Assembly: GCA_964016885.1 (NCBI GenBank) | Contig: OZ024754.1 | Coordinates: 36,766,001-36,830,000 of the forward strand | Reading direction: 5' to 3' | Source of the DNA: Eledone cirrhosa | Taxonomy: Eukaryota | Length of the DNA stretch: 64,000 nucleotides | In this document: positions 44,501 to 61,789 of the stretch, piece by piece | Numbering within the stretch: position 1 is the stretch's first letter | How the letters are laid out: each line of letters begins with the position of its first letter | Position numbers and translations under genes: made by a program | Notes under the pieces: generated by a model | Seen by the model: the letters and a program-made list of their open reading frames with translations, nothing else | What the model was told of the DNA's origin: nothing | Database searches by the model: none

Positions 44501-47500
44501 TACTAACTACAGCTATACCACCATATTACTAACTACAGCTATACCACCATCTTACTAACTACAGCTATACCACCATCTTACTAACTACAGCTATACCACC
44601 ATCTTACTAACTACAGCTATACCACCATCTTACTAACTACAGCTATACCACCATCTTACTAACTACAGCTATACCACCATCTTACTAACTACAGCTATAC
44701 CACCATCTTACTACTAACTACAGCTATACCACCATCTTACTAACTACAGCTATACCACCATATTACTAACTACAGCTATACCACCATCTTACTAACTACA
44801 GCTATACCACCATCTTACTAACTACAGCTATACCACCATATTACTAACTACTACAACTATACCACCATCTTACTAACTACTACAGCTATACCACCATATT
44901 ACTAACTACAGCTATACCACCATATTACTAACTACTACAGCTATACCACCATCTTACTAACTACTACAGCTATACCACCATATTACTAACTACAGCTATA
45001 CCACCATATTACTAACTACTACAGCTATACCACCATCTTACTAACTACAGCTATACCACCATCTTACTAACTAGTACAGCTATACCACCATTTACTAACT
45101 ACAGCTATACCACCATCTTATTAACTACTACAGCTATACCACCATATTACTAACTACTACAGCTATACCACCATCTTACTAACTACAGCTATACCACCAT
45201 ATTACTAACTACTACAGCTATACCACCATCTTACTAACTACAGCTATACCACCATCTTACTAACTACATCTATACCACCATATTACTAACTACTACAGCT
45301 ATACCACCATCTTACTAACTACGGCTATACCACCATATTACTAACTACTACAGCTATACCACCATCTTACTAACTACAGCTATACCACCATATTACTAAC
45401 TACTACAGCTATACTACCATCTTACTAACTACAGCTATACCACCATATTACTAACTACTACAGCTATACCACCATCTTACTAACTACTACAGCTATACCA
45501 CCATCTTACTAACTACAGCTATACCACCATCTTACTAACTACAGCTATACCACCATATTACTAACTACTACAGCTATACTACCATATTACTAACTACTAC
45601 AGCTATACCACCATCTTACTAACTACTACAGCTATACCACCATCTTACTAACTACAGCTATACCACCATCTTACTAACTACAGCTATACCACCATCTTAC
45701 TAACTACTACAGCTATACCACCATCTTACTAACTACAGCTATACCACCATCTTACTAACTACTACAGCTATACCACCATATTACTAACTACAGCTATACG
45801 ACCATATTACTAACTACTACAGCTATACCACCATATTACTAACTACTACAGCTATACCACTATATTACTAACTACTACAGCTATACCACCATATTACTAA
45901 CTACTACAGCTATACCACTATATTACTAACTACTACAGCTATACCACCATATTACTAACTACTACAGCTATACCACCATTTTACTAACTACTACAACTAT
46001 ATCACCATATTACTAATTACTACAGCTATACTACCATCTTACTAACTACAACGATACCACCATCTTACTAACTACAACTATACCACCATATTACTAACTA
46101 CAGCTATACCACCATATTACTAACTACTACAGATATACCACCATATTACTAACTACTACAGCTATACCACCATCTTACTAACTACTACAGCTATACCACC
46201 ATATTACTAACTACAACTATACCACCATCTTACTAACTACTACAACTATACCACCATATTACTAACTACTACAGCTATACCACTATATTACTAACTACAA
46301 CTATACCACCATCTTACTAACTACTACAGCGATACTACCATATTACTAACTACAGCTATACCACCATATTACTAACTACAGCTATACCACCATATTACTA
46401 ACTACTACAGCTATACCACCATCTTACTAACTACAGCTATACCACCATCTTACTAACTACTACAGCTATACCACCATATTACTAACTACAGCTATACCAC
46501 CATATTACTAACTACTACAGCTATACCACCATCTTACTAACTACAGCTATACCACCATATTACTAACTACTACAGCTATACCACCATCTTACTAACTACA
46601 GCTATACCACCATCTTACTAACTACAGCTATACCACCATATTACTAACTACAGCTATACCACCATATTACTAACTACTACAACTATACCCCCATTTTACT
46701 AACTACAGCTATACCACCATCTTACTAACTACAGCTATACCACCATCTTACTAACTACAGCTATACCACCATATTACTAACTACTACAGCTATACCACCA
46801 TATTACTAACTACAACTATACCACCATCTTACTAACTACAGCTATACCACCATATTACTAACTACAACTATACCACCATCTTACTAACTACAACTATACC
46901 ACCATCTTACTAACTACAGCTATACCACCATCTTACTAACTACTACAGCTATACCACCATCTTACTAACTACTACAGCTATACCACCATATTACTAACTA
47001 CTACAGCTATACCACCATATTACTAACTACAACTATACCACCATCTTACTAACTACAGCTATACCACCATATTACTAACTACTACAGCTATACTACCATA
47101 TTACTAACTACAGCTATACCACCATATTACTAACTTCAGCTATACCACCATATTACTAACTACTACAGCTATACCACCATCTTACTAACTACTACAGCTA
47201 TACCACCATATTACTAACTACTACAGCTATACCACCATCTTACTACTAACTACAGCTATACCACCATCTTACTACTAACTACAACTATACCACCATCTTA
47301 CTACTAACTACAGCTATACCACCATCTTACTACTAACTACAGCTATACCACCATCTTACTAACTACAACTATACCACCATCTTACTACTAACTACAGCTA
47401 TACCACCATCTTACTAACTACAACTATACCACCATCTTACTACTAACTACAACTATACCACCATCTTACTACTAACTACAGCTATACCACCATCTTACTA

Positions 47501-48033
47501 ACTACTACAGCTATACCACCATCTTACTACTAACTACAGCTATACCACCATCTTACTACTAACTACAGCTATACTACCATATTACTAACTACTACAGCTA
47601 TACCACCATCTTACTACTAACTACAGCTATACCACCATCTTACTAACTACAGCTATACCACCATCTTAGTAACTACAGCTATACCACCATCTTACTACTA
47701 ACTACAACTATACCACCATCTTACTAACTACAACTATACCACCATCTTACTAACTACAACTATACCCACCATCTTACTAACTACTACAGCTATACCACCA
47801 TCTTACTACTAACTACAGCTATACCACCATCTTACTACTAACTACAGCTATACCCCCATCTTACTACTAACTACAGCTATACCACCATCTTACTACTAAC
47901 TACAGCTATACCACCATCTTACTAACTACAACTATACCACCATCTTACTACTAACTACAGCTATACCACCATCTTACTAACTACAGCTATACCACCATCT
48001 TACTAACTACAGCTATACCACCATCTTACTAAC
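41586..48033. repeat. 6.4-kb minisatellite, 26-bp unit ctacagctataccaccat[c/a]ttactaa with +CTA 29-bp variants
   Basis: Seen directly; higher-order duplications visible. Confidence 0.98.
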
Positions 48034-48754: not shown

Positions 48755-48894
48755 TCATTTCCTGACGTAAACATTTGGACTTCCAGGAGGAGTACTTGTG
48801 GGCACACGACTGATCGATGATTTCCGTTTCAGTGACAGACGTTTGGCGGTGGACTTAACAAACGTCTCTGCAGACTCAAAGACAGAATCACTGC
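48755..48894 (-). CDS. Probable terminal coding exon: (G)SDSVFESAETFVKSTAKRLSLKRKSSISRVPTSTPPGSPNVYVRK*
   Basis: Strong acceptor tctcttttcatctctcttttcag, phase 1, 45 codons to TGA, protein-like composition in unique sequence. Confidence 0.75.
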
Positions 48895-49035
48895 CTGAAA
48901 AGAGAGATGAAAAGAGATATAAGCATGTGTATATGTATTTTTATATACATGTCTAGCATTATATATATATATATATATATATACAATATTAAATAATATT
49001 AAATAAATGGAAAACTATATTTATAAAACCATATC

Positions 49036-49101
49036 TATTTCATTATATATATTTCGGGGATATCATATTAACAATATGCTATGCCTTCATCAGACAAAAT
49101 A
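49036..49101 (-). ncRNA. Type I hammerhead ribozyme (mirror copy; sense to the candidate host gene)
   Basis: Reverse complement of 49279-49344. Confidence 0.7.
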
Positions 49102-49278
49102 CAATATAAACAGTTTTATAGATAAATATATTCGACATACCGTAATAAACATCAACTTCATTTGAAGAGGTTTACTCTAGCAGTGTAAACCTCTAACTGC
49201 TAGAGTAAACCTCTTCAAATGAAGTTGATGTTTATTACGGTATGTCGAATATATTTATCTATAAAACTGTTTATATTG

Positions 49279-49344
49279 TATTTTGTCTGATGAAGGCATA
49301 GCATATTGTTAATATGATATCCCCGAAATATATATAATGAAATA
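49279..49344 (+). ncRNA. Type I hammerhead ribozyme (family A)
   Basis: tattttgt-CTGATGA-aggcatag catatt gtt aatatg atatcccc-GAAA-t atat a-TA-atgaaata. Confidence 0.7.
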
Positions 49345-49472
49345 GATATGGTTTTATAAATATAGTTTTCCATTTATTTAATATTGTAAATATACTCCAA
49401 ATATTTGTCGAGTGCTTTTATATCAGTTATAAATATTTACTAGTTGTAACCCAACAATTTTAAATATAACTT

Positions 49473-49503
<31 letters not shown>

Positions 49504-49599
49504 ACATAGTAAAGCCTACTACAGCCAGTAGGCATCTCTAACAAAATACACCCCCGTCTCACCACCCCCACCCCATCCACACCACCCCCTCCTATGTAA

Positions 49600-49898
49600 A
49601 GTTATGTTGGTGCCACACCATCCAGGCCGAAACAAATGAGATCGTGTAGGTGTCACGACAAAAAAACACACAGTGTCCACGCTGTAAATGTGGCCGTGTA
49701 GGCAACACGGTAAAAACCTCCCAGACCCACACTGTAAATGTGGTTGGTGTTAGGAAGGGCATCCAACTGTAGAAAACCTGCCAGACAGTCCTATGCGAGC
49801 AAGACAATCACTCTTGCCTCAAGTGGGAATACCCCCGTCCAAACCCATGCAAGCGTGGAACACGGACGTTAAACGTTGATGATGATGATGATGATGAT
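49600..49898 (+). mobile_element. SINE with ggaagggcatcc central block and (GAT)n tail
   Basis: gttggtgttaggaagggcatcc...cccatgcaagcgtggaacacggacgttaaac(gat)n; inverted copy at 50516-50758. Confidence 0.8.
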
Positions 49899-49980
49899 AT
49901 ATATATATATATATAAACAATGAATTTATAACATGAAGTTCACATGAAGATATGTCACTATCTTTACACCAATTATTGTT

Positions 49981-50037
49981 CTTTATCTGACGAAAGCGTA
50001 CTTAAATATTAGTACCCTTGAAATACGTATAATAAAA
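49981..50037 (+). ncRNA. Type I hammerhead ribozyme (family A)
   Basis: ctttat-CTGACGA-aagc gtact taaatatt agtac cctt-GAAA-t acgt a-TA-ataaaa. Confidence 0.7.
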
Positions 50038-50082
50038 TAAATATGGTTTTATAAAGATATTTTCCATTTATTAATATTATTG

Positions 50083-50125
<43 letters not shown>

Positions 50126-50473
50126 TATCATTATATATATCTTTTTTTTTATGTAATAAACAACACAATAAAATTATTCCATTACCCAAGGTTTCGCGAA
50201 GTTAGACAATTCTATACAATACATAGAGCACGCTTCTTTCCTTTACCTTTTCTACAGAAATACTTAACACACACACATATATATATAAGATAAGAGAGAC
50301 GGTTTTATTTGTACATCTTCATTTTATTACATAATTCTGTTATACGTATTTCAAAGATGACAGAGTGGTTATATAATAACCACTCTGTATTTTCCTATCC
50401 ATTGATATGTTACTGGTTTCTCGTAGTGTTTACATTGCTGACCAATTAGTTGATCAACCAACTTTCATAACTG

Positions 50474-50515
<42 letters not shown>

Positions 50516-50516
<1 letters not shown>

Positions 50517-50758
50517 CATCATCGTTTAACGTCCATTTTCCACGCTAGCATGGGTCTGGACGGGAATTGTCCCACTTGAGGCAAGATTGGTTGTCTTGCT
50601 CAGGACTGTCTGGCGGGTTTTCTACGGCTGGATGCCCTTCCTAACACCAACCACGTTTACAGTGTGGACTGGGAGGTTTTTACCGTGTTACCTACACGGC
50701 CACATTACAGCGTGGACACTGTGTTTTTTTTGTCGTGACAATCTACACGACCTCATTT
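50516..50758 (-). mobile_element. SINE, inverted copy of 49634-49898
   Basis: High similarity by eye along ~240 bp. Confidence 0.85.
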
Positions 50759-50785
50759 ATTTAGGACTATATATATATATATATG

Positions 50786-51157
50786 TACCCTCAGGTCCTA
50801 AATAATAGGAGTTTGGAATAAGCGGGGGGATGGAAAATCTGCTATTTTTCTAGGTTGCCTTCATTGATTTTTTTTAAAACCAGAATTAGATATCTAGTTT
50901 ACATACTGAGACCCCAACCCAACATATGACATTTCTAGTAATGTACTTTTTTTGTCATGCATAATGTTATTTAATGTCTAAAGAAAATTAATTCTCGCAA
51001 GAATGTTACCACTTAAAATTAAATTTTACCAAAGATAAATTAGCAAAATTTAATATGGGGTGGGGTTGGAATAACAGTGTGTGTGTGGGGGGGGGCATAT
51101 CTGAAAAATTCATAAGCGTGGTGGGGGGTGGGGGCGATTATTTGAGACCAAAGAGTT
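50786..51157. mobile_element. Possible DNA-transposon-derived MITE
   Basis: Imperfect TIRs taccctcaggtcctaaataa / ttatttgagaccaaagagt. Confidence 0.45.
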
Positions 51158-51189
51158 TATATGTTAACTGTGCATTATATGACATTTCT

Positions 51190-51362
51190 GTTTGGGGGAA
51201 ATGTGGAAAGGAATGTGCCGTATTTGGTGGACTGAAACGTCATTTGAAAGTGCACTTACTGCAAGAGGCCCCCACAGTTGCAGCATCTGTGCAAGAGTGT
51301 GCAAACCCCGTGCTGCTCATGCTTAAGTGTCATGCGATGGCATTACTTGAAATAGAGTTGCA

Positions 51363-51370
<8 letters not shown>
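51190..51370 (+). mobile_element. RTE-type LINE 3' fragment
   Basis: KCGKECAVFGGLKRHLKVH finger remnant and tail gcgatggcattacttg...gcagccatcat. Confidence 0.7.
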
Positions 51371-51418
<48 letters not shown>

Positions 51419-51558
51419 TTAAGTTTGGTGGTTCACCACTGGATAGAACTGGTCATTCCGTATAGCGAACCATGATGTAATAGTAGGAAAAGCACTCTAT
51501 ATGATGCAACTCATCCCTCTTTGATGTTGAATTTTGTTGGTGCGAGAATGGAGTCAAT

Positions 51559-51674
51559 TATTATTGAGTAAAATGAGAAGAGGCCGGACTGGTGAAATTC
51601 CTTCAAAGATTTATTATAATAAATCTTTGAAGGAATTTCACCAATCTGGCCTCCTGTCATTTTACTCAATAATA
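51559..51674. repeat. Spacer-less palindrome, 58-bp arms, few mismatches
   Basis: Centre gatttatta/taataaatc at 51616/51617. Confidence 0.9.
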
Positions 51675-53148
51675 TATAAATATATATAATGTATTTATAA
51701 AATGTAAAGAACTATGTGTGATTATTAAAAAAATTAAAACACAGAGTATTATAATATATAGCAATTACTCATAATTTTGCTTTCAGACAATATAATAAAT
51801 AAATTATGGTGGTTTGGGTGTCGAGGGGAAAGAAGAAAAAGTAATACAAATAGCTACGAAAGCACAAACAAAACAAAAAAGGCTGTTCTTTTTTTAAAGA
51901 AAACAAACAATACGAAACATAGGTTTTAATAAGAGACAGTTGTGAGTTGTGAGGAGAAAGGAGTGATAAAAAAGTTTCAAGTCCTCCGTGCTGAAAAAAG
52001 GGACCACAGAATGTCATGGTAAAGTGATGGCTAGAAATAATAGCTAATACCTGAAAAAACAATTAACCAGTTGGAAACCAACAGAGTAACCCCAGTTGTG
52101 GCTAAGAAGCATAGGATTTGTGTTGTGAGATATGTAATAATTGATTGGTAAAGACATCAGAAAACTGGTATAATGTGGTAGAAATATATAAAGGGCAAAA
52201 ATGACAAATAAATCAATACAAAGTAATGTTTTTTACCCAGTATATTTCAACATTAGGAGTCTCTTTTCAAATGCAAAACAAAAACGATGCAAAACAAAAA
52301 TGAATGATGCGTTCTTCCTTATCTGGTCCAAGTGTGTGGGTTCTTGATTTTGGCACAACCTCCAAGCCTTCACATTAGAAGCGTGTAATGAAATAGAATA
52401 TATTAACTGGACAAGAAGATATGGTGGTGAAGAAACAATTAATCCCACTGTCTCTGGTTGCTCAGTCTTAACCAATAAAGAATACATTTACAAACATAAC
52501 ACAGAGATTGGAAATGATGCCAGTGTTATGAAATACCAACTGAAAAAGGACTATATAAACATATTCAAGGTGAATTTCTCTGAGAAACATAAGTGGCAAC
52601 ACTCTAGAATATACCAGAACACACAAAGCCAATAAGTGAGATATTATTACCAAGGTCAAGCAAGTGGGAAAGTGTTACTTAATTGAAGTATCAGTTCTAA
52701 TAGGTAACAATGTATCTTTCAAGGAAATGAAGAAATGAGACAAATATAAAGATATTAATAGAGATAACTCACATGAAGGGCTGAAAACAGAAACAATCTA
52801 GATAATAATAAGTTCTAAAGAAAATGATTAAAAAGTGTGCAAAATCAGAATAAAACTTCCCCAAATTATAAATTCCACGAAATACTAAAAATAGCACTAC
52901 ACAAATTATATAAAGTGTCAATACAGCTGAATGTTCAAAACCAAAACAAAAACAGAATACTGCATGGGTCCAAGACACACAGAGCTGTTCTCAGTTGCAC
53001 AGTGAAATCACATAATATAAAAAATAGGACTACTGAATAATAACAACTATAGCAATAATAATAATAATAGTAGCAATAACAAACTGTAAAGTGAAAAGAA
53101 AGAAGTCAAAACCAGCATATATAAAAAGGAAAAAGAAAAAATAATTAC

Positions 53149-53172
53149 CTGATGGTGGAAGTATTATGCCAG
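53149..53172 (-). CDS. Candidate 24-nt microexon, phase 1-1 (xGIILPPSG)
   Basis: ctctctttctctcataag/CTGGCATAATACTTCCACCATCAG/gtaatt; phase matches the terminal exon. Confidence 0.6.
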
Positions 53173-53196
53173 CTTATGAGAGAAAGAGAGTGTGTG

Positions 53197-53234
<38 letters not shown>

Positions 53235-53559
53235 CGTGCGTGTGATGTGCGCGTGTGCGTGTGTGCGTGTGTAACACAAATAATAGATCATGAAGGTTTA
53301 TCAATTAATACATTATTTATTTGATTTACATATGTTTCATTCTCGAAAGGATGTCATTTGTCAAGACTTTTGTAGAGAAATCCTCAGAATCAATTATATA
53401 TAACGTATGAAAGGTATTTATGACCATGAGAGAAGAAGTGTTTGTTCATGGGTGTGGCCTTAAAAAGACAGAGTTGCATCTAGCAGTATATTGTGAGGTA
53501 TGCCTAGTTTTGTATACTGGCATGGGTTGGACAAGGAAGTGAATCAGGTATGTGGATGG

Positions 53560-53830
53560 GAGTAGGAGGCATATATACTGAGAGGAAAGCTAAGCATAAA
53601 AGAAACTGAATATGACATGCAAGGGAAATGACTGCAGTGATATGGTCACGTGATGCATATGAAGGGCAAGAGTTGAATACAAAAAAAAAAGAGGCAAGCG
53701 CTTGAAGTGGATGGAAAGTGCAGACACCTAAGAAGACATGGGATGGATTTGTGAAGACCCCAAGAAACTAAAGAGATAACACAGGAAGGAACTGACTATC
53801 AATATGCAATAATAAAAAAAGGCTTGCCCA
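53560..53830 (+). mobile_element. Highly decayed RTE LINE 3' fragment
   Basis: Remnant peptides YGHVMHM, LEVDGK and PKKTW. Confidence 0.55.
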
Positions 53831-54872
53831 CCTATACAATCATTACAGTATGTTAATGTTGAATAAACACACAAGAGTCTCTCTCACCATGATTATATTA
53901 AGCTGTGAGTAAATGTTACTGATGATGATTAAAAACCCAGAAACACACGCCTGACATTCTCACCAGCTACTGTGATAGATGTGACATGATCACTGCTTAA
54001 AAGATTCATAGCAAGACTCATCTATGTTTATCATACATAAACATATCAGATATACATCTTTCATATACACCTCTGTTATGAATCACTCTGTGTTAGTGCT
54101 ACTGTTAATTTATCCTAGCTGTCACTTGCTGAGGTCAGATAGGTCAGGTGACTGGGTCCTGCTCTTATACTTTGTTTTGGCTTCGTTTCTATGGCTGTAA
54201 GGTATACCTTTTAATAAATATACAATTTCACCTTGCTACATAGAAATGACATTAGTTAAACAAGAGGCATTTAGCCCTCCTTGGGAAGAAATGGGGGTTT
54301 AATGTGACTAGTTTCTTCTTAGATTTTCATCAGGGAAATACAACCCAGCCTCTATCCACAGACAGACAAAGAAAGAAAGAAACAAAGAAGAAAATAAGAA
54401 AAATATCAAGAGTGAAAAAAAGAAAAATATCGATAAAACAGAAACAAACAAACAAACACGAAAGAAAGAAAAAAGAAAAGAAAAGAAAAAAAAAATGGAA
54501 AAAGAAGAAAAAAATGGAAAAAGAAAAAAAAAAGAAAAAGAAAACGGAAAAGGAAAAAAGAAAGAAAGGAAAATGGAAAAATAAAATAAAAATAGAAAGA
54601 AAGAAGACAGAAAAAAGATGAAAAATTCAAAGAAAGAGAGAAAGACAGAAACAGAAAGAAAGAAAGAGAGAAAGAGACTGGATAGATGAATTGCAGGAGA
54701 AAGAAACCAAACCAAAAAATAAGAAGTTCCAAGCAGAAAAGAAAACCATTGAAATCTGAGAAAATGTGAAAAAATACCATACTGCATCATTGCACAATGA
54801 AGAATTCATATGTATTGCTGTGCCATAGCCATAGGCTGTTCACCTCTGGGGGAGTCACAGAGACACTATTGT

Positions 54873-57800
54873 GACATACAGTGTGTCTGGAGCATTTTAA
54901 ACATGGCAGAGTCTAGGGATCAGCCCTAGTACTGAACATACAGTTCGTCTGGGACATTTTAAACATGGCAGAGTCTAGGGACCAGCTCTAGTACTGGACA
55001 TACAGTGTGTCTGGGACATTTTAAACATGGCAGAGTCTAGGGATCAGTCCTAGTACTGGACATACAGTGTGTCTGGGACATTTTAAACATGGCAGAGTCT
55101 AGGGATCAGTCCTAGTACTGGACATACAGTGTGTCTGGGACATTTTAAACATGGCAGAGTCTAGGGATCAGTCCTAGTACTGGACATACAGTGTGTCTGG
55201 GACATTTTAAACATGGCAGAGTCTAGGGATCAGTCCTAGTACTGGACATACAGTGTGTCTGGGACATTTTAAACATGGCAGAGTCTAGGGATCAGTCCTA
55301 GTACTGGACATACAGTGTGTCTGGGACATTTTAAACATGGCAGAGTCTAGGGACCAGCTCTAGTACTGGACATACAGTGTGTCTGGGACATTTTAAACAT
55401 GGCAGAGTCTAGGGATCAGTCCTAGTACTGGACATACAGTGTGTCTGGGAAATTTTAAACATGGCAGAGTCTAGGGATCAGTCCTAGTACTGGACATACA
55501 GTGTGTCTGGGACATTTTAAACATGGCAGAGTCTAGGGATCAGTCCTAGTACTGGACATACAGTGTGTCTGGGACAGTTTAAACATGGCAGAGTCTAGGG
55601 ATCAGTCCTAGTACTGGACATACAGTGTGTCTGGGACATTTTAAACATGGCAGAGTCTAGGGATCAGTCCTAGTACTGGACATACAGTGTGTCTGGGACA
55701 TTTTAAACATGGCAGAGTCTAGGGATCAGTCCTAGTACTGGACATACAGTGTGTCTGGGACATTTTAAACATGGCAGAGTCTAGGGATCAGTCCTAGTAC
55801 TGGACATACAGTGTGTCTGGGACATTTTAAACATGGCAGAGTCTAGGGATCAGTCCTAGTACTGGACATACAGTGTGTCTGGGACATTTTAAACATGGCA
55901 GAGTCTAGGGATCAGTCCTAGTACTGGACATACAGTGTGTCTGGGACATTTTAAACATGGCAGAGTCTAGGGATCAGTCCTAGTACTGGACATACAGTGT
56001 GTCTGGGACATTTTAAACATGGCAGAGTCTAGGGATCAGTCCTAGTACTGGACATACAGTGTGTCTGGGACATTTTAAACATGGCAGAGTCTAGGGATCA
56101 GTCCTAGTACTGGACATACAGTGTGTCTGGGACATTTTAAACATGGCAGAGTCTAGGGATCAGTCCTAGTACTGGACATACAGTGTGTCTGGGACATTTT
56201 AAACATGGCAGAGTCTAGGGATCAGTCCTAGTACTGGACATACAGTGTGTCTGGGACATTTTAAACATGGCAGAGTCTAGGGATCAGTCCTAGTACTGGA
56301 CATACAGTGTGTCTGGGACATTTTAAACATGGCAGAGTCTAGGGATCAGTCCTAGTACTGGACATACAGTGTGTCTGGGACATTTTAAACATGGCAGAGT
56401 CTAGGGATCAGTCCTAGTACTGGACATACAGTGTGTCTGGGACATTTTAAACATGGCAGAGTCTAGGGATCAGTCCTAGTACTGGACATACAGTGTGTCT
56501 GGGACATTTTAAACATGGCAGAGTCTAGGGATCAGTCCTAGTACTGGACATACAGTGTGTCTGGGACATTTTAAACATGGCAGAGTCTAGGGATCAGCCC
56601 TAGTACTGGACATACAGTGTGTCTGGGACATTTTAAACATGGCAGAGTCTAGGGATCAGTCCTAGTACTGGACATACAGTGTGTCTGGGACATTTTAAAC
56701 ATGGCAGAGTCTAGGGATCAGTCCTAGTACTGGACATACAGTGTGTCTGGGACATTTTAAACATGGCAGAGTCTAGGGATCAGTCCTAGTACTGGACATA
56801 CAGTGTGTCTGGGACATTTTAAACATGGCAGAGTCTAGGGATCAGCCCTAGTACTGGATATACAGTGTATCTGGGACATTTTAAACATGGCAGAGTCTAG
56901 GGATCAGTCCTAGTACTGGACATACAGTTCGTCTGGGACATTTTAAACATGGCAGAGTCTAGGGATCAGTCCTAGTACTGGACATACAGTGTGTCTGGGA
57001 CATTTTAAACATGGCAGAGTCTAGGGATCAGTCCTAGTACTGGACATACAGTGTGTCTGGGACATTTTAAACATGGCAGAGTCTAGGGATCAGCCCTAGT
57101 ACTGGACATACAGTGTATCTGGGACATTTTAAACATGGCAGAGTCTAGGGATCAGCCCTAGTACTGGACATACAGTGTATCTGGGACATTTTAAACATGG
57201 CAGAGTCTAGGGATCAGTCCTAGTACTGGACATACAGTTCGTCTGGGACATTTTAAACATGGCAGAGTCTAGGGATCAGTCCTAGTACTGGACATACAGT
57301 GTGTCTGGGACATTTTAAACATGGCAGAGTCTAGGGATCAGCCCTAGTACTGGACATACAGTGTGTCTGGGACATTTTAAACATGGCAGAGTCTAGGGAT
57401 CAGCCCTAGTACTGGACATACAGTTCGTCTGGGACATTTTAAACATGGCAGAGTCTAGGGACCAGCCCTAGTACTGGACATACAGTGTGTCTGGGACATT
57501 TTAAACATGGCAGAGTCTAGGGACCAGCCCTAGTACTGGACATACAGTTCGTCTGGGACATTTTAAACATGGCAGAGTCTAGGGACCAGCCCTAGTACTG
57601 GACATACAGTTCGTCTGGGACATTTTAAACATGGCAGAGTCTAGGGACCAGCCCTAGTACTGGACATACAGTGTATCTGGGACATTTTAAACATGGCAGA
57701 GTCTAGGGATCAGCCCTAGTACTGGACATACAGTGTGTCTGGGACATTTTAAACATGGCAGAGTCTAGGGACCAGCCCTAGTACTGGACATACAGTTCGT

Positions 57801-58162
57801 CTGGGACATTTTAAACATGGCAGAATCCAAGGACCAGCTCTAGTACTGGACATACAGTTTGTCTGGGACATTTTAAACATGGCAGTGTCCAAGGACCAGC
57901 CTCAGTACTGGACATACAATGTGTCTGGTACATTTTAAACATGGCAGAATCTAGGGATCAGCCCTAGTACTGGACATACAGTTTGTCTGGGACATTTTAA
58001 ACTAACCAGAATCTAGGGATCAGCCCTAGTACTGGACATACAGTTTGTCTGGAGCATTTTAAACATGGCAGAGTCCAAGGATCAACTCCAGTACTGGACA
58101 TACAGTTTGTCTGGGGCATTTTAAACATGGCAGAGTCCAAGGAATCAACCCCAGTACAGGAC
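54873..58162. repeat. 62-bp minisatellite, about 53 copies, homogeneous core and divergent edges
   Basis: Unit gacatacagtgtgtctgggacattttaaacatggcagagtctagggatcagtcctagtactg. Confidence 0.98.
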
Positions 58163-58295
58163 TGGTATTTTATTTATCAACTTTGAAAGGGTGAAAAGCA
58201 AAGTTGACCTTGGCAGGATTTGAATATAGAATGTGAGAATGAATACTGCAAAACATTCTATCCGACATTCAAATAACTCTGCCAATTCGTCGCCT
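58140..58295 (-). mobile_element. tRNA-derived SINE whose 3' end merges into the 62-bp array
   Basis: aatcaaccccagtacaggactggtattttatt...aaagttgaccttggcaggatttgaa...gccaattcgtcgcctt. Confidence 0.85.
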
Positions 58296-58495
58296 TTTTT
58301 CATACATATTAGTGCATTGATTACCTCCCTTTGTCTCTTCCGCTCTTTGGCAGAAAGAGGTAATCAGCTAATGTGAAAAAAAAAACCAAAAACAAAAGAA
58401 AAAAAAAACAAGAAGAAATATACTGCAGCCATTGCACAACCAAGAATGCAGTCATTGCACAACTAAGAATGCATATGTATTAGTGCATTGATTAC

Positions 58496-58561
58496 CTCCC
58501 TTTGTCTCCTCCGCTCCTTGGCAGCTGATCCACGAATGCCTGGCAGCACAACATATACAGA
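58496..58561 (-). CDS. Candidate short coding exon, 66 nt (VCICCAARHSWISCQGAEETKG) or 44 nt from the inner acceptor (GIRGSAAKERRRQRE, 58496-58539)
   Basis: Acceptors ttcatttcatttag and gtgctgccag, donor GAG/gtaatc; both frames open. Confidence 0.55.
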
Positions 58562-58794
58562 CTAAATGAAATGAATGGAAGTCACAGACCAATTAAATGC
58601 CACAGGGAGTATGTATGCCTATGACATAGCGAGCACACATATGTATGTATGTATCTATATGTGTGAGTGTGTGTGCGTGTTTAGGAAGTTGCATATATTC
58701 CTCAATTTCTACAACTGTATTGAACTGTTTAATATAAAATATAATTTCCAATAAAGGTGTATATGAACCCATATGATAAATATATACTTAGTTA

Positions 58795-59067
58795 TCACTG
58801 TGAGGTTTGAAGCTGTGAACATGTCTTAGCTACTTCAGCAACCAGAATAAGAGTGCTAGATACATTTGATTGTCATTACAGATAGTCACTGTGAGGTTTG
58901 AAGCTGTGAACATGTCTTAGCTTCTTCAGCAAACAAAATAAGAGTGCTAGATACATTTGATTGTCATTACAGATAGTCACTGTGAGGTTTGAAGCTGTGA
59001 ACATGTCTTAGCTACTTCAGCAACCAGAATAAGAGTGCTAGATACATTTGATTGTCATTACAGATAG
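58795..59067. repeat. 91-bp tandem repeat, 3 copies
   Basis: tcactgtgaggtttgaagc starts at 58795, 58886 and 58977. Confidence 0.95.
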
Positions 59068-59069
59068 AT

Positions 59070-59215
59070 TGTGAGCTGACAGAGTCATTAGAATGCCAGA
59101 TAGAATGCTTTGTGATATTCATTCTGTTTCGCTGCTCTCTGAGTTCGATTCCCATCTAGGTCATCTTTACCTTTCGAGGTCGATAAAAAGAGTACCAGTC
59201 TAGAACTGGGGTTGA
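59070..59215 (+). mobile_element. Degenerate tRNA-derived SINE
   Basis: gagttcgattccc...cctttcgaggtcgataaaaagagtaccagt. Confidence 0.75.
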
Positions 59216-59299
59216 TTCTTCCTCTGTATCTCTTTCGCACTTCCTCTCTCTCACTTTCTATCCTTCTCTGGAAGAAATCTGCTGTATTCAGCCCTGGAG

Positions 59300-59646
59300 A
59301 GGTAGTAAAACTGGTTGGTGTTAGGAAGGGCATCCAGCCGAAGAAAACCTGCCTTAAACCCCGAGCCTTAGTCGTAGACTTAAAACTCTACCCAAAATCT
59401 TAGAATTAGACTTAAATCCCAAACCGAAGCTTTAGACTTAAACTTAAACCCTAACCCTTAGACTTAGACCCCAACCCTGAACCTTAGACATAGACTTAAA
59501 CCTCAACACAAAGCCTTAGATTAGATTTAAACCCCAACCCTTAGACTTAGACTTAAAGCCCAATCCTGCATCAAATGGAACAAAACCCTCTAACCCATGC
59601 TAGCATCGAAGATGGACGTCAAACGATGATGATGATGATGATGATG
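59300..59646 (+). mobile_element. (GAT)n-tailed SINE interrupted by ~210 bp of ttagac/aaaccc repeats
   Basis: ggttggtgttaggaagggcatccagccg...aacctgcct [insert ~59353-59567] ...aacccatgctagcatcgaagatggacgtcaaac(gat)n. Confidence 0.75.
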
Positions 59647-59862
59647 TTTCTACTGTAGGCACAAGGCCAGCAATTTGAAGAGAAGGGAAAAGTCAATTAA
59701 ATCAACTCCAGTGTATTACTGGTTCTTTATTTTATCGACTCCGTAAGGATGAAAAGCAAAGCTAACCTCGGCGGGATTTGAACTCAGAGCATAAAGGGCC
59801 ATAACTCTATGCTGCAAAGCATGGCGTCCGACGCTCCACCGATACTGCCAATCCGCCGCCCT
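59646..59862 (-). mobile_element. Full-length tRNA-derived SINE
   Basis: Reverse complement of the family consensus including head ggcggcggattggcagtatcgg. Confidence 0.9.
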
Positions 59863-59882
59863 CCCTAATAATAATTATAATA

Positions 59883-60096
59883 ATTGTTTCTACTTTAGGC
59901 ACAAGGCCAGCAATTTGGGAGGGGGTGCAGTTAAATCAACCCCAGTGTGTAACAGGTACTTTATTTTATCGACTCCGTAAGGATGAGAGGCAAAGTTAGC
60001 CTCGGCAGGATTTGAACGCAGACCGTAAAGGGGCGTAACTCCATGCTGCAAAGCATGGCATCCGACCCTCTACCGATACCGCCAATCCGCTGCCGC
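59883..60096 (-). mobile_element. Full-length tRNA-derived SINE, tandem to the previous copy
   Basis: Same head, core and tail. Confidence 0.9.
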
Positions 60097-61009
60097 TTCT
60101 AACAATATAAGGAATTCTAAACAAGAGAAAGGAGGAAGTAGTAATAAACATCTGTAATATATTATATAACCCAACAATTCTAGAAATAGTTAAAATGAGA
60201 GTGTAGAGTGTAAAAACCCAGCAAGTGGTTACATAATAAAAGTCAGTGGAATCAAAGAATATTGGAATCAAAGAATAATGGAATCAAAGAATAATGGAAT
60301 TAAAGAATAGCAGAGTAATATGAAACTCATAAACTACACATATTTTAACAAACTAAGCTGGATAAACAAAGAATTAAAACAAACTTAACTGATGAAAAAT
60401 GAATAAATGAATATATAAACATAAGTGAAAGCTTGTTAAAAGCAAAGAAAAACAACTGTAAATAATATTTACAAAAAAAAAATGCAAAAAATAATCATTA
60501 TCATTCTCATTCCAATAACCTCTTTTCCATATTGGCATGGGTTGGACAAGAAGTATATGAGGCTGTATTCTATGACTGGATGCCCTTCTTGAAGGCAATC
60601 CATAATTATTAAGTGTGTTACTTATTCCACAGACCTTCACATGTGAAACTGCTAAAGTGTAGGACATCAACAAATGGCACAGATTGTTTAGTTGTATGTG
60701 TGAGTGTGTATGTCCACATCTGCATTTGTCTATGTCCCATAACTTAGCGGTTCGACAAAATGAGATCGATAAAATAAGTGCTAGCTTTTTAAAAAAAAAG
60801 ATAAGCACTGGAATCGATATAATCAACTAAATCCCTTCAAGTCAGTGCCCCAGCATGGCCACAGACTAATGACCGAAACTAGTAAAAGAGCGAAAGAAAA
60901 AATGAGAGAGACTGGAAGCCAAAATAAGACAAAGAAATATCAAAGCAGAAGAAAAAAAATTATTTTTGTAATTTCAGATTTTTTTTTTGATTTTTTTATT
61001 TTAGCCTAC

Positions 61010-61039
61010 CTGGCAAACAAGAACAGTCAGCATCCGGCT
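61010..61039 (-). CDS. Candidate 30-nt microexon, phase 1-1 (xPDADCSCLP)
   Basis: ctaac branch motif, ~50-nt AG-free pyrimidine-rich zone with TGC, atag/AGCCGGATGCTGACTGTTCTTGTTTGCCAG/gtaggc. Confidence 0.5.
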
Positions 61040-61153
61040 CTATGTTCCCATGACAACACAGGTAAGCAAGAAGAGGAATAGACAACAAATGGTTAGTAAA
61101 AGATTGTTAGCGTTTGGTGGGGAAAAACATAGCAAAACAGAGCTTTGTTGTTT

Positions 61154-61789
61154 TAAACCCTTTTGATAATAAACTAGCTGAAATAAACCCTGGTCTATTA
61201 AAACCAAACTACTCCTGTACCACGTGAAACCACATTAGTAAGATAATGTTGAAACATTCCAAACAGCATTATGACAGTGTCAAATTACAAATTGATGTCT
61301 TTACTCTAATACTGTAAATTTTCACAATAATCTGTCCACTAGTAAAGATAATATAAATATTTGAATTAACAAACCTGTTTTTAAATATTTTTCACTAAAT
61401 CATTACAAGATGTTAAGAGTAAAGATGTTTACATGTTATTCTAAAAACCTTCCATCATAGTTACAGACCTGCAAACCCCTAAAACCCAAAACTGGGAGTA
61501 CCATGAAACAAAAGTGCTGCAAAACAAGGAGAAATGAGGCAAAATTGGGAGATTTTGCATAAACCCATTTTCGCAAGAGAAGACATCGCTTACCCACCCC
61601 TAAGTGGGTGGGAGATCACTCTGCCGAACAGGGAGAGTTCACAGGTCTGTAATTATGTCCCAAACACCAAAAGAATAATGAGAAAGTTATTTACTTTACT
61701 AAATCCCTTCAAATTTTTGATTATTTTCAAAAGGATTTAAAAATTATGGGTAATGTCTTTCATTAGAAATCTGTTAACAAAAGGGTTAA
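61154..61789. mobile_element. Possible piggyBac-like non-autonomous element
   Basis: taaa-cccttttgataa ... ttaacaaaaggg-TTAA termini. Confidence 0.45.

What the first reader, a model, noticed from the sequence alone, without database searches (positions are those of the whole stretch)
48755..61039. Chain of phase-compatible micro-exons ending a hidden minus-strand gene
Seen: candidate exons of 30 nt (61010-61039), 66 nt (58496-58561) and 24 nt (53149-53172), all phase 1-1 with GT-AG, splice in frame to a terminal exon: xPDADCSCLP-VCICCAARHSWISCQGAEETKG-AGIILPPS-GSDSVFESAETFVKSTAKRLSLKRKSS...TPPGSPNVYVRK*. None appears in the ORF track. The 30-nt exon has a distal CTAAC, a long AG-free zone and TGC, the layout established for eMIC/Srrm234-regulated neural microexons. 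Inference: a modular, alternatively spliced C-terminal tail with a possible palmitoylation-type Cys cluster and basic phospho-sites. I do not recognise the protein.
Basis: partly seen in the sequence, partly recalled or inferred. Interest (0 to 1): 0.7.

Follow-up and report, generated by a model that had tools for sequence, protein, structure and literature searches.

The report
Octopus RalGAP-alpha tail with optional microexon
This is the 3' end of an octopus gene for RalGAP-alpha, an off-switch for Ral GTPases: the last exon and a 30-base optional exon match public octopus gene models, two further proposed mini-exons are likely chance look-alikes, and nerve-specific control of the 30-base exon is predicted from motifs only.

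Summary
The hidden gene is RalGAP-alpha (RALGAPA). Its exons run in order on the minus strand for about 200 kb upstream and include the Rap_GAP domain. All four segments sit at the stated coordinates with AG/GT, in phase. The terminal exon is real: 42/45 identical to Octopus sinensis, with a basic KRLSLKRK motif that has counterparts from a cnidarian to vertebrates. The 30-nt exon is a conserved cassette: 8 of 10 Octopus models reaching the last exon include it (8/9 identical), 2 skip it, and O. sinensis X1 and X5 differ by exactly these 10 residues. The 66-nt and 24-nt segments occur in 0 of 304 RalGAP-alpha tails (16 cephalopod) and score near chance as splice sites, so the four-exon chain and five-Cys cluster are unsupported. 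The 30-nt exon has a 101-nt AG-free zone, two CTAAC and a weak acceptor, and the genome encodes both eMIC exons, but its TGC is at -29 and tissue specificity was not tested. Known gene, already-annotated microexon, modest interest.

The parts
48755..48894 (-). Coding part of the main last exon of RalGAP-alpha (G-SDSVFES...KRLSLKRKSS...TPPGSPNVYVRK*)
   Evidence: 42/45 identical to O. sinensis X1; joined to the upstream S-rich exon in O. sinensis, O. bimaculoides and Argonauta models; single copy
61010..61039 (-). 30-nt phase 1-1 cassette microexon (E-PDADCSCLP)
   Evidence: 8/9 identical to the insert in O. sinensis X1, X2, X4, X10-X13 and O. vulgaris CAI9730076.1; skipped in O. sinensis X5, O. 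bimaculoides and Argonauta models
61040..61142 (-). Acceptor region of the 30-nt exon: 101-nt AG-free zone, CTAAC at -71 and -57, CT-rich tract, TGC at -29, weak 3' splice site
   Evidence: role in regulation inferred
58496..58561 (-). 66-nt candidate exon, unsupported; likely a chance AG..GT segment
   Evidence: 0 of 304 tails; splice score near control rate, no CTAAY or TGC; its 3' end and donor are duplicated at 58309-58353
53149..53172 (-). 24-nt candidate exon, unsupported but not excluded
   Evidence: 0 of 304 tails; AAG acceptor, AG-free zone is a CA microsatellite, no CTAAY or TGC; single copy

Best explanation
The window holds the last intron and last exon of the octopus RalGAP-alpha gene, with one 30-nt exon that related octopus gene models include or skip, adding ten residues with a Cys-Ser-Cys to a likely disordered tail, while the 66-nt and 24-nt segments are likely not exons. 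Shown: the GAP domain ends about 75 kb upstream of the microexon. Exon order is last GAP exon (L009:1968-2086), 129-nt Ser-rich exon (L007:9565-9693), 62.5-kb intron, 30-nt exon, 12.1-kb intron, last exon. All junctions are phase 1, so skipping keeps the frame. Inferred: the tail is a regulatory appendage, not part of catalysis. Its conserved K/R-R-L-S and TPPxSP motifs are likely kinase sites, and the microexon would tune membrane or partner binding just upstream of them, possibly by S-acylation of CSC beside the basic patch (about 0.2). Inclusion is predicted to depend on a splicing enhancer that rescues the weak acceptor; Srrm234-eMIC is the best candidate (about 0.4).
For: Colinear tblastn of shark RALGAPA2 and O. 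sinensis X1 across L021 to L007 and the window. Rap_GAP Pfam hits on two exons, E 1e-12 and 6e-13. Human RalGAP-alpha2 in PDB 9qwp, E 5e-22, RHLGND motif kept. One genomic copy. X1 versus X5 differ only by the 10 residues. Inclusion in 8 of 10 Octopus models that reach the last exon. The microexon layout is unique in the scanned DNA. Both eMIC exons are in the genome. 66-nt and 24-nt peptides in 0 of 304 tails.
Against: No spliced read from this species was seen; support is from database gene models of relatives, assumed (recalled practice) to rest on RNA-seq. Three O. sinensis models (X3, X6, X7) were not listed (15 of 19 members shown); by length order X3 is 2102-2107 aa and could carry an 8-residue insert. 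No squid, cuttlefish or nautilus model was among the 120 listed of 4372 hits. Segments with donor >=8 and AG-free >=50 number 6 in the sense tail against 2 in 303 kb of controls, a mild excess that favours the 66-nt and 24-nt candidates. Inclusion in most models fits broad inclusion as well as neural inclusion.
Confidence: 0.8

Rival explanations
1. All three small exons are real; the 66-nt and 24-nt exons are rare, neural or lineage-specific and missing from current models, giving a five-Cys tail.
For: All are frame-preserving with good donors (8.1, 9.4) and are single-copy. Mild sense-strand excess of such segments. This junction takes many alternative exons in molluscs. The 24-nt peptide has LP at positions 5-6 like the 8-residue Physella insert GKLRLPSV, a weak after-the-fact likeness.
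Against: 0 of 304 tails, 16 of them cephalopod. O. sinensis X1, which has only the 30-nt exon, is the longest listed model. No CTAAY or TGC. Several equal or better chance candidates lie in the same introns.
Confidence: 0.12
2. The 30-nt exon is a real cassette but is broadly included or regulated by something other than eMIC; the motif layout is only a distal-branch-point acceptor.
For: Included in 7 of 8 O. sinensis models that reach the last exon. TGC is 29 nt from the exon, not close. The upstream 129-nt exon, present in all but one listed Octopus model, also has a 110-nt AG-free zone and CTAAY.
Against: Weakest acceptor score in the gene (-4.0, against 5.6 and 10.6 for two exons outside the training set), double CTAAC and CTCT tract match the published eMIC code. 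Skipped in O. bimaculoides and Argonauta models.
Confidence: 0.5
3. The segments belong to another gene lying between RalGAP-alpha and the window.
For: A 62.5-kb gap separates the 129-nt exon from the 30-nt exon.
Against: Octopus and Argonauta models join the S-rich exon straight to the 30-nt or last exon.
Confidence: 0.01

Closest known systems
RalGAP-alpha (RALGAPA1/RALGAPA2; O. sinensis XP_036363518.1 and isoforms; PDB 9qwp; PMC12311180, passages read)
   Same: Same exon order, Rap_GAP domain with the RHLGND motif, same last exon (42/45) and same 30-nt insert (8/9) as Octopus models. Vertebrate RALGAPA1 also has alternative C-termini at the end of the last GAP exon, one with RMSMKLRRSS.
   Different: The vertebrate models seen have no CSC insert. 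The passages read assign regulation to AKT sites in an internal loop and give no role for this tail.
eMIC (Srrm234 / SRRM3-4) dependent neural microexons (bioRxiv 10.1101/2021.02.24.432780, section 9 and passages read; PMC8797185 passages)
   Same: 30 nt (fly median 31), frame-preserving, weak 3' site, long AG-free zone, CUAAY, CU-rich tract; eMIC exons present in this genome.
   Different: UGC is at -29 rather than close to the 3' site. Flanking introns are 62 and 12 kb, whereas fly targets have short ones. Neural specificity and eMIC dependence untested.
Ralgapb neural microexon of mouse (PMC12868881, passages read)
   Same: A microexon in the same RalGAP complex, with an effect on neurogenesis timing.
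   Different: Other subunit, other position; no homology implied.
Recurrent neural exons in orthologous genes (bioRxiv 10.64898/2026.09.05.749416, passages read; includes O. bimaculoides)
   Same: Gastropods carry unrelated 8-10 residue inserts at the same junction (Pomacea, Babylonia, Biomphalaria, Physella).
   Different: RalGAP is not named in its main text (0 hits); its supplements were not seen. Whether the gastropod inserts are cassette exons or shifted splice sites was not tested.

Membership tests
RalGAP-alpha | C-terminal Rap/Ran-GAP domain (PF02145) | tested here: met
   Two exons score 48-49 bits, cut-off 27
RalGAP-alpha | Catalytic Asn thumb motif | tested here: met
   RHLGND aligned to human alpha2 chain 9qwp_A 1763-1815; that this Asn is N1742 rests on a recalled length of 1873 aa plus tag
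RalGAP-alpha | Full-length colinear homology including the N-terminus | tested here: met
   exons in order from L021 to the window
RalGAP-alpha | GAP activity on Ral with the beta subunit | not testable with these tools
   Needs an assay
Cassette microexon | Short, frame-preserving, included in some and skipped in other transcripts (30-nt exon) | tested here: met
   X1 versus X5 and 8 of 10 Octopus models; from relatives' gene models, not reads of this species
Cassette microexon | Same test for the 66-nt and 24-nt segments | tested here: not met
   0 of 304 tails, exact-motif search; three O. sinensis models unseen
eMIC-dependent neural microexon | Long AG-free zone, CUAAY branch point, weak 3' site | tested here: met
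   101 nt; -71 and -57; acceptor score -4.0
eMIC-dependent neural microexon | UGC close to the 3' splice site | tested here: inconclusive
   Only TGC within 30 nt is at -29; the gene's other microexon (18 nt) has TGC at -30 and -26
eMIC-dependent neural microexon | eMIC domain encoded in the genome | tested here: met
   PF15230 hit over cut-off on C22 and a second exon ARKRPVPYHRP about 21 kb downstream; expression not shown
eMIC-dependent neural microexon | Neural-specific inclusion that depends on eMIC | not testable with these tools
   No tissue RNA could be laid
S-palmitoylated tail | Acylation of the Cys residues | not testable with these tools
   CSC is kept in O. sinensis and O. vulgaris; no acylation data

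The most novel reading that the evidence does not exclude
Octopuses gained an eMIC-controlled neural microexon that puts an acylatable Cys-Ser-Cys next to the conserved basic, phosphorylatable end of RalGAP-alpha. This switches the GAP onto neuronal membranes and so tunes Ral-exocyst secretion. It sits at a junction where molluscs repeatedly evolved their own microexons and alternative ends, including a 19-residue read-through end kept from bivalves to octopus.
Probability: 0.12. Interest if true: 0.6.

Novelty: new member of a known kind. Interest (0 to 1): 0.27.

Why it matters
As it stands this is an orthologue of a known gene with a microexon already in RefSeq models. It gives one concrete, testable candidate for eMIC-type splicing in a cephalopod; my searches found no paper on that. 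It also points to the RalGAP-alpha tail as a conserved and heavily spliced part for which I found no described role (listings and passages only).

Tried and rejected
Terminal peptide against proteins of 80-2000 aa: nothing; most octopus models are longer, so the blank means nothing. No RNA holder listed for the last exon. The three runs laid on 58380-61250 are contigs of one sample that run straight through the exon borders, i.e. genomic, so they give no splice evidence. ESM Atlas did not answer. The 2019 eMIC paper is not held. Pfam finds nothing in the tail peptides. A three-sequence alignment was uninformative. Gastropod and bivalve alternative last exons and O. sinensis X9's end had no convincing match in the fetched DNA. 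The idea that the inside of the 30-nt exon (CTGAC..TGCCAG) is really an acceptor for a smaller exon was dropped because relatives' models encode all ten residues. No fold or complex prediction was run: the tail is short and low in complexity. Splice matrices came from only 18 exons of this gene, so training scores are inflated and thresholds were set on the candidates.
Full report
Observation. The three short segments and the terminal exon are at the stated places on the minus strand, bounded by AG and GT, all phase 1-1, and they give the stated peptides. Every upstream exon ends in G, so any combination stays in frame; the first residue of the 30-nt exon is E. The window is G000:C14:36766001-36830000 in a 3.0-Gb genome.

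The gene. I took the next 200 kb. An ORF at L021:776-901 matched the N-terminus of RalGAP-alpha. tblastn with shark RALGAPA2 and with O. sinensis X1 placed exons in order on the minus strand from L021 to L007 and then into the window. Two exons hit Pfam Rap_GAP. One aligns with human RalGAP-alpha2 in PDB 9qwp with the RHLGND motif intact and has one copy in the genome. The end of the gene is: last GAP exon L009:1968-2086, 12.3-kb intron, 129-nt Ser-rich exon L007:9565-9693, 62.5-kb intron, 30-nt exon, 12.1-kb intron, last exon. High identity to Octopus models, without an exact match to any, says this is an octopod.

Which segments are exons. A search with the GAP end of a limpet protein listed 120 of 4372 hits, among them O. 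sinensis and Argonauta. Of the 19-member Octopus cluster 15 were listed. Ten of them reach this last exon; 8 carry ETDADCSCLP (O. sinensis X1, X2, X4, X10-X13; O. vulgaris CAI9730076.1) and 2 skip it (O. sinensis X5, O. bimaculoides). The Argonauta model also skips it. X1 and X5 differ by exactly these ten residues. The window's exon is 8/9 identical and its last exon 42/45 identical to X1. The 66-nt and 24-nt peptides were found in 0 of the 304 fetched proteins that have the GAP-end motif (330 fetched; 16 cephalopod models; exact motifs). X1 is the longest listed O. sinensis model and lengths fall with isoform number, so a 22-residue insert is unlikely in the unseen X3, X6, X7. An 8-residue insert in X3 cannot be excluded. 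This is evidence from gene models; that they rest on RNA-seq is my recollection of how such models are built.

Chance. With splice matrices from 18 exons of this gene, 127 open phase 1-1 segments with donor >=5 lie in the 87 kb between the GAP domain and the last exon; the 24-, 30- and 66-nt segments rank 16, 33 and 35. Segments up to 70 nt as good as the 66-nt one: 6 in the sense tail, 12 in 303 kb of control strands (about 3.4 expected), 7 in 120 kb of upstream sense DNA. As good as the 24-nt one: 4, 3 (about 0.9 expected) and 3. The 30-nt layout (good donor, AG-free zone >=55, CTAAY): 1, 0 and 0. Against my reading, donor >=8 with AG-free >=50 gives 6 in the sense tail and 2 in controls. 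But the 24-nt zone is a CA microsatellite with an AAG acceptor, and neither it nor the 66-nt segment has CTAAY or TGC. The 3' end and donor of the 66-nt segment are duplicated 171 bases further on.

Regulation. The published eMIC code is a short exon, very weak 3' site, long AG-free zone, UGC close to the 3' site, CU-rich tract and CUAAY (10.1101/2021.02.24.432780, section 9). The 30-nt exon has a 101-nt AG-free zone, CTAAC at -71 and -57, the weakest acceptor score of the exons tabulated and a strong donor; its TGC is at -29. The genome encodes both eMIC exons on C22. A second microexon of the gene, 18 nt at L010:7513-7530 (RTEERP, skipped in O. sinensis X4), has a 91-nt AG-free zone and TGC at -30 and -26. 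Tissue specificity was not tested. Inclusion in most O. sinensis models fits broad inclusion too. I put eMIC control at about 0.4.

How it likely works. RalGAP-alpha with its beta subunit speeds GTP hydrolysis on Ral through an Asn thumb and is inhibited by AKT and 14-3-3 (PMC12311180, passages). The tail lies beyond the GAP domain and is Ser/Pro-rich, so it is likely disordered (inference). A basic K/R-R-L-S-x-K/R motif aligns from Xenia through molluscs, insects and amphioxus to vertebrate RALGAPA1, and TPPxSP follows it in protostomes and amphioxus; loose patterns hit 161 and 132 of 304 tails, isoforms counted separately. That these resemble PKA-type and proline-directed kinase sites is recalled. 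The microexon adds an acidic stretch and CSC about 18 residues before the basic motif. S-acylation there would give a membrane anchor; this is a guess (about 0.2), and without the 66-nt segment there are two Cys, not five.

A splicing hot spot. After the S-rich exon, molluscan models branch into many ends. Gastropods have unrelated 8-10 residue inserts at this junction. Reading through the S-rich exon's donor gives GRKAQSALWHKGLDNLIFF* in this genome, identical in O. vulgaris and close in Haliotis, Pomacea, Mizuhopecten and an unnamed contig of the oyster cluster (6 of 304 tails). Such conservation may be coding or regulatory, and some models may be read-through artefacts. An alternative last exon like O. 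sinensis X8 lies at L005:3733-3801 (83% identical).

Literature. Searches for RalGAP or RALGAPA1 with microexon gave 2 and 1 papers; the relevant one concerns mouse Ralgapb (PMC12868881, passages). Searches on octopus or cephalopod microexons gave 0, 2 and 1 papers. The 2026 preprint covering O. bimaculoides does not name RalGAP in its main text; its supplements were not seen and may list this exon.

Verdict. The gene is a known one, the last exon and the 30-nt microexon are real and already in public models, the 66-nt and 24-nt links of the chain are unsupported, and neural eMIC control and acylation remain testable guesses. Novelty: new member of a known kind. Interest 0.27.

Noticed in passing
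L007:9507-9564 (minus; directly after the 129-nt exon): Read-through of the donor encodes GRKAQSALWHKGLDNLIFF*, a 19-residue hydrophobic-ended C-terminus nearly unchanged in octopus, abalone, apple snail, scallop and oyster-cluster sequences. No role found; arguably the most conserved unexplained piece of the tail.
   Followed up: partly
L010:7513-7530 (minus): Second microexon, 18 nt, phase 2-2 (RTEERP), skipped in O. sinensis X4 and absent from the Argonauta model; limpet, abalone and whelk models have 6-7 residue inserts at the same place.
   Followed up: partly
L005:3733-3801 (minus): Alternative last exon matching O. sinensis X8 (83% identical), with AATAAA about 3.2 kb downstream.
   Followed up: partly
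window 48995-49385: Perfect 190-bp inverted repeat with an 11-nt spacer, 100 nt upstream of the last exon's acceptor; a young fold-back (MITE-like) element with many 99-100% copies (576 candidates, 40 scored). It would form long dsRNA in the pre-mRNA, a possible editing substrate.
   Followed up: partly
window 41596-48033: 6.4-kb tandem array of a 26-bp unit starting about 720 nt after the stop codon; no AATAAA or ATTAAA between 48760 and 44000, so the 3' end of the mRNA is unclear.
   Followed up: no
L006:2367-2423 / 2489 (minus): 57- or 123-nt phase 1-1 segment with better splice scores than the 66-nt and 24-nt candidates, in CT-rich sequence; hydrophobic peptide not seen in the Octopus tails.
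   Followed up: partly
L022 (G000:C22:28167743-28167880) and L025 near 9458: The two exons of the Srrm234 eMIC domain, about 21 kb apart.
   Followed up: partly
window 28036-28629 (plus): 197-aa open frame that looks like the C-terminal end of a LINE reverse transcriptase (label recalled, not tested).
   Followed up: no
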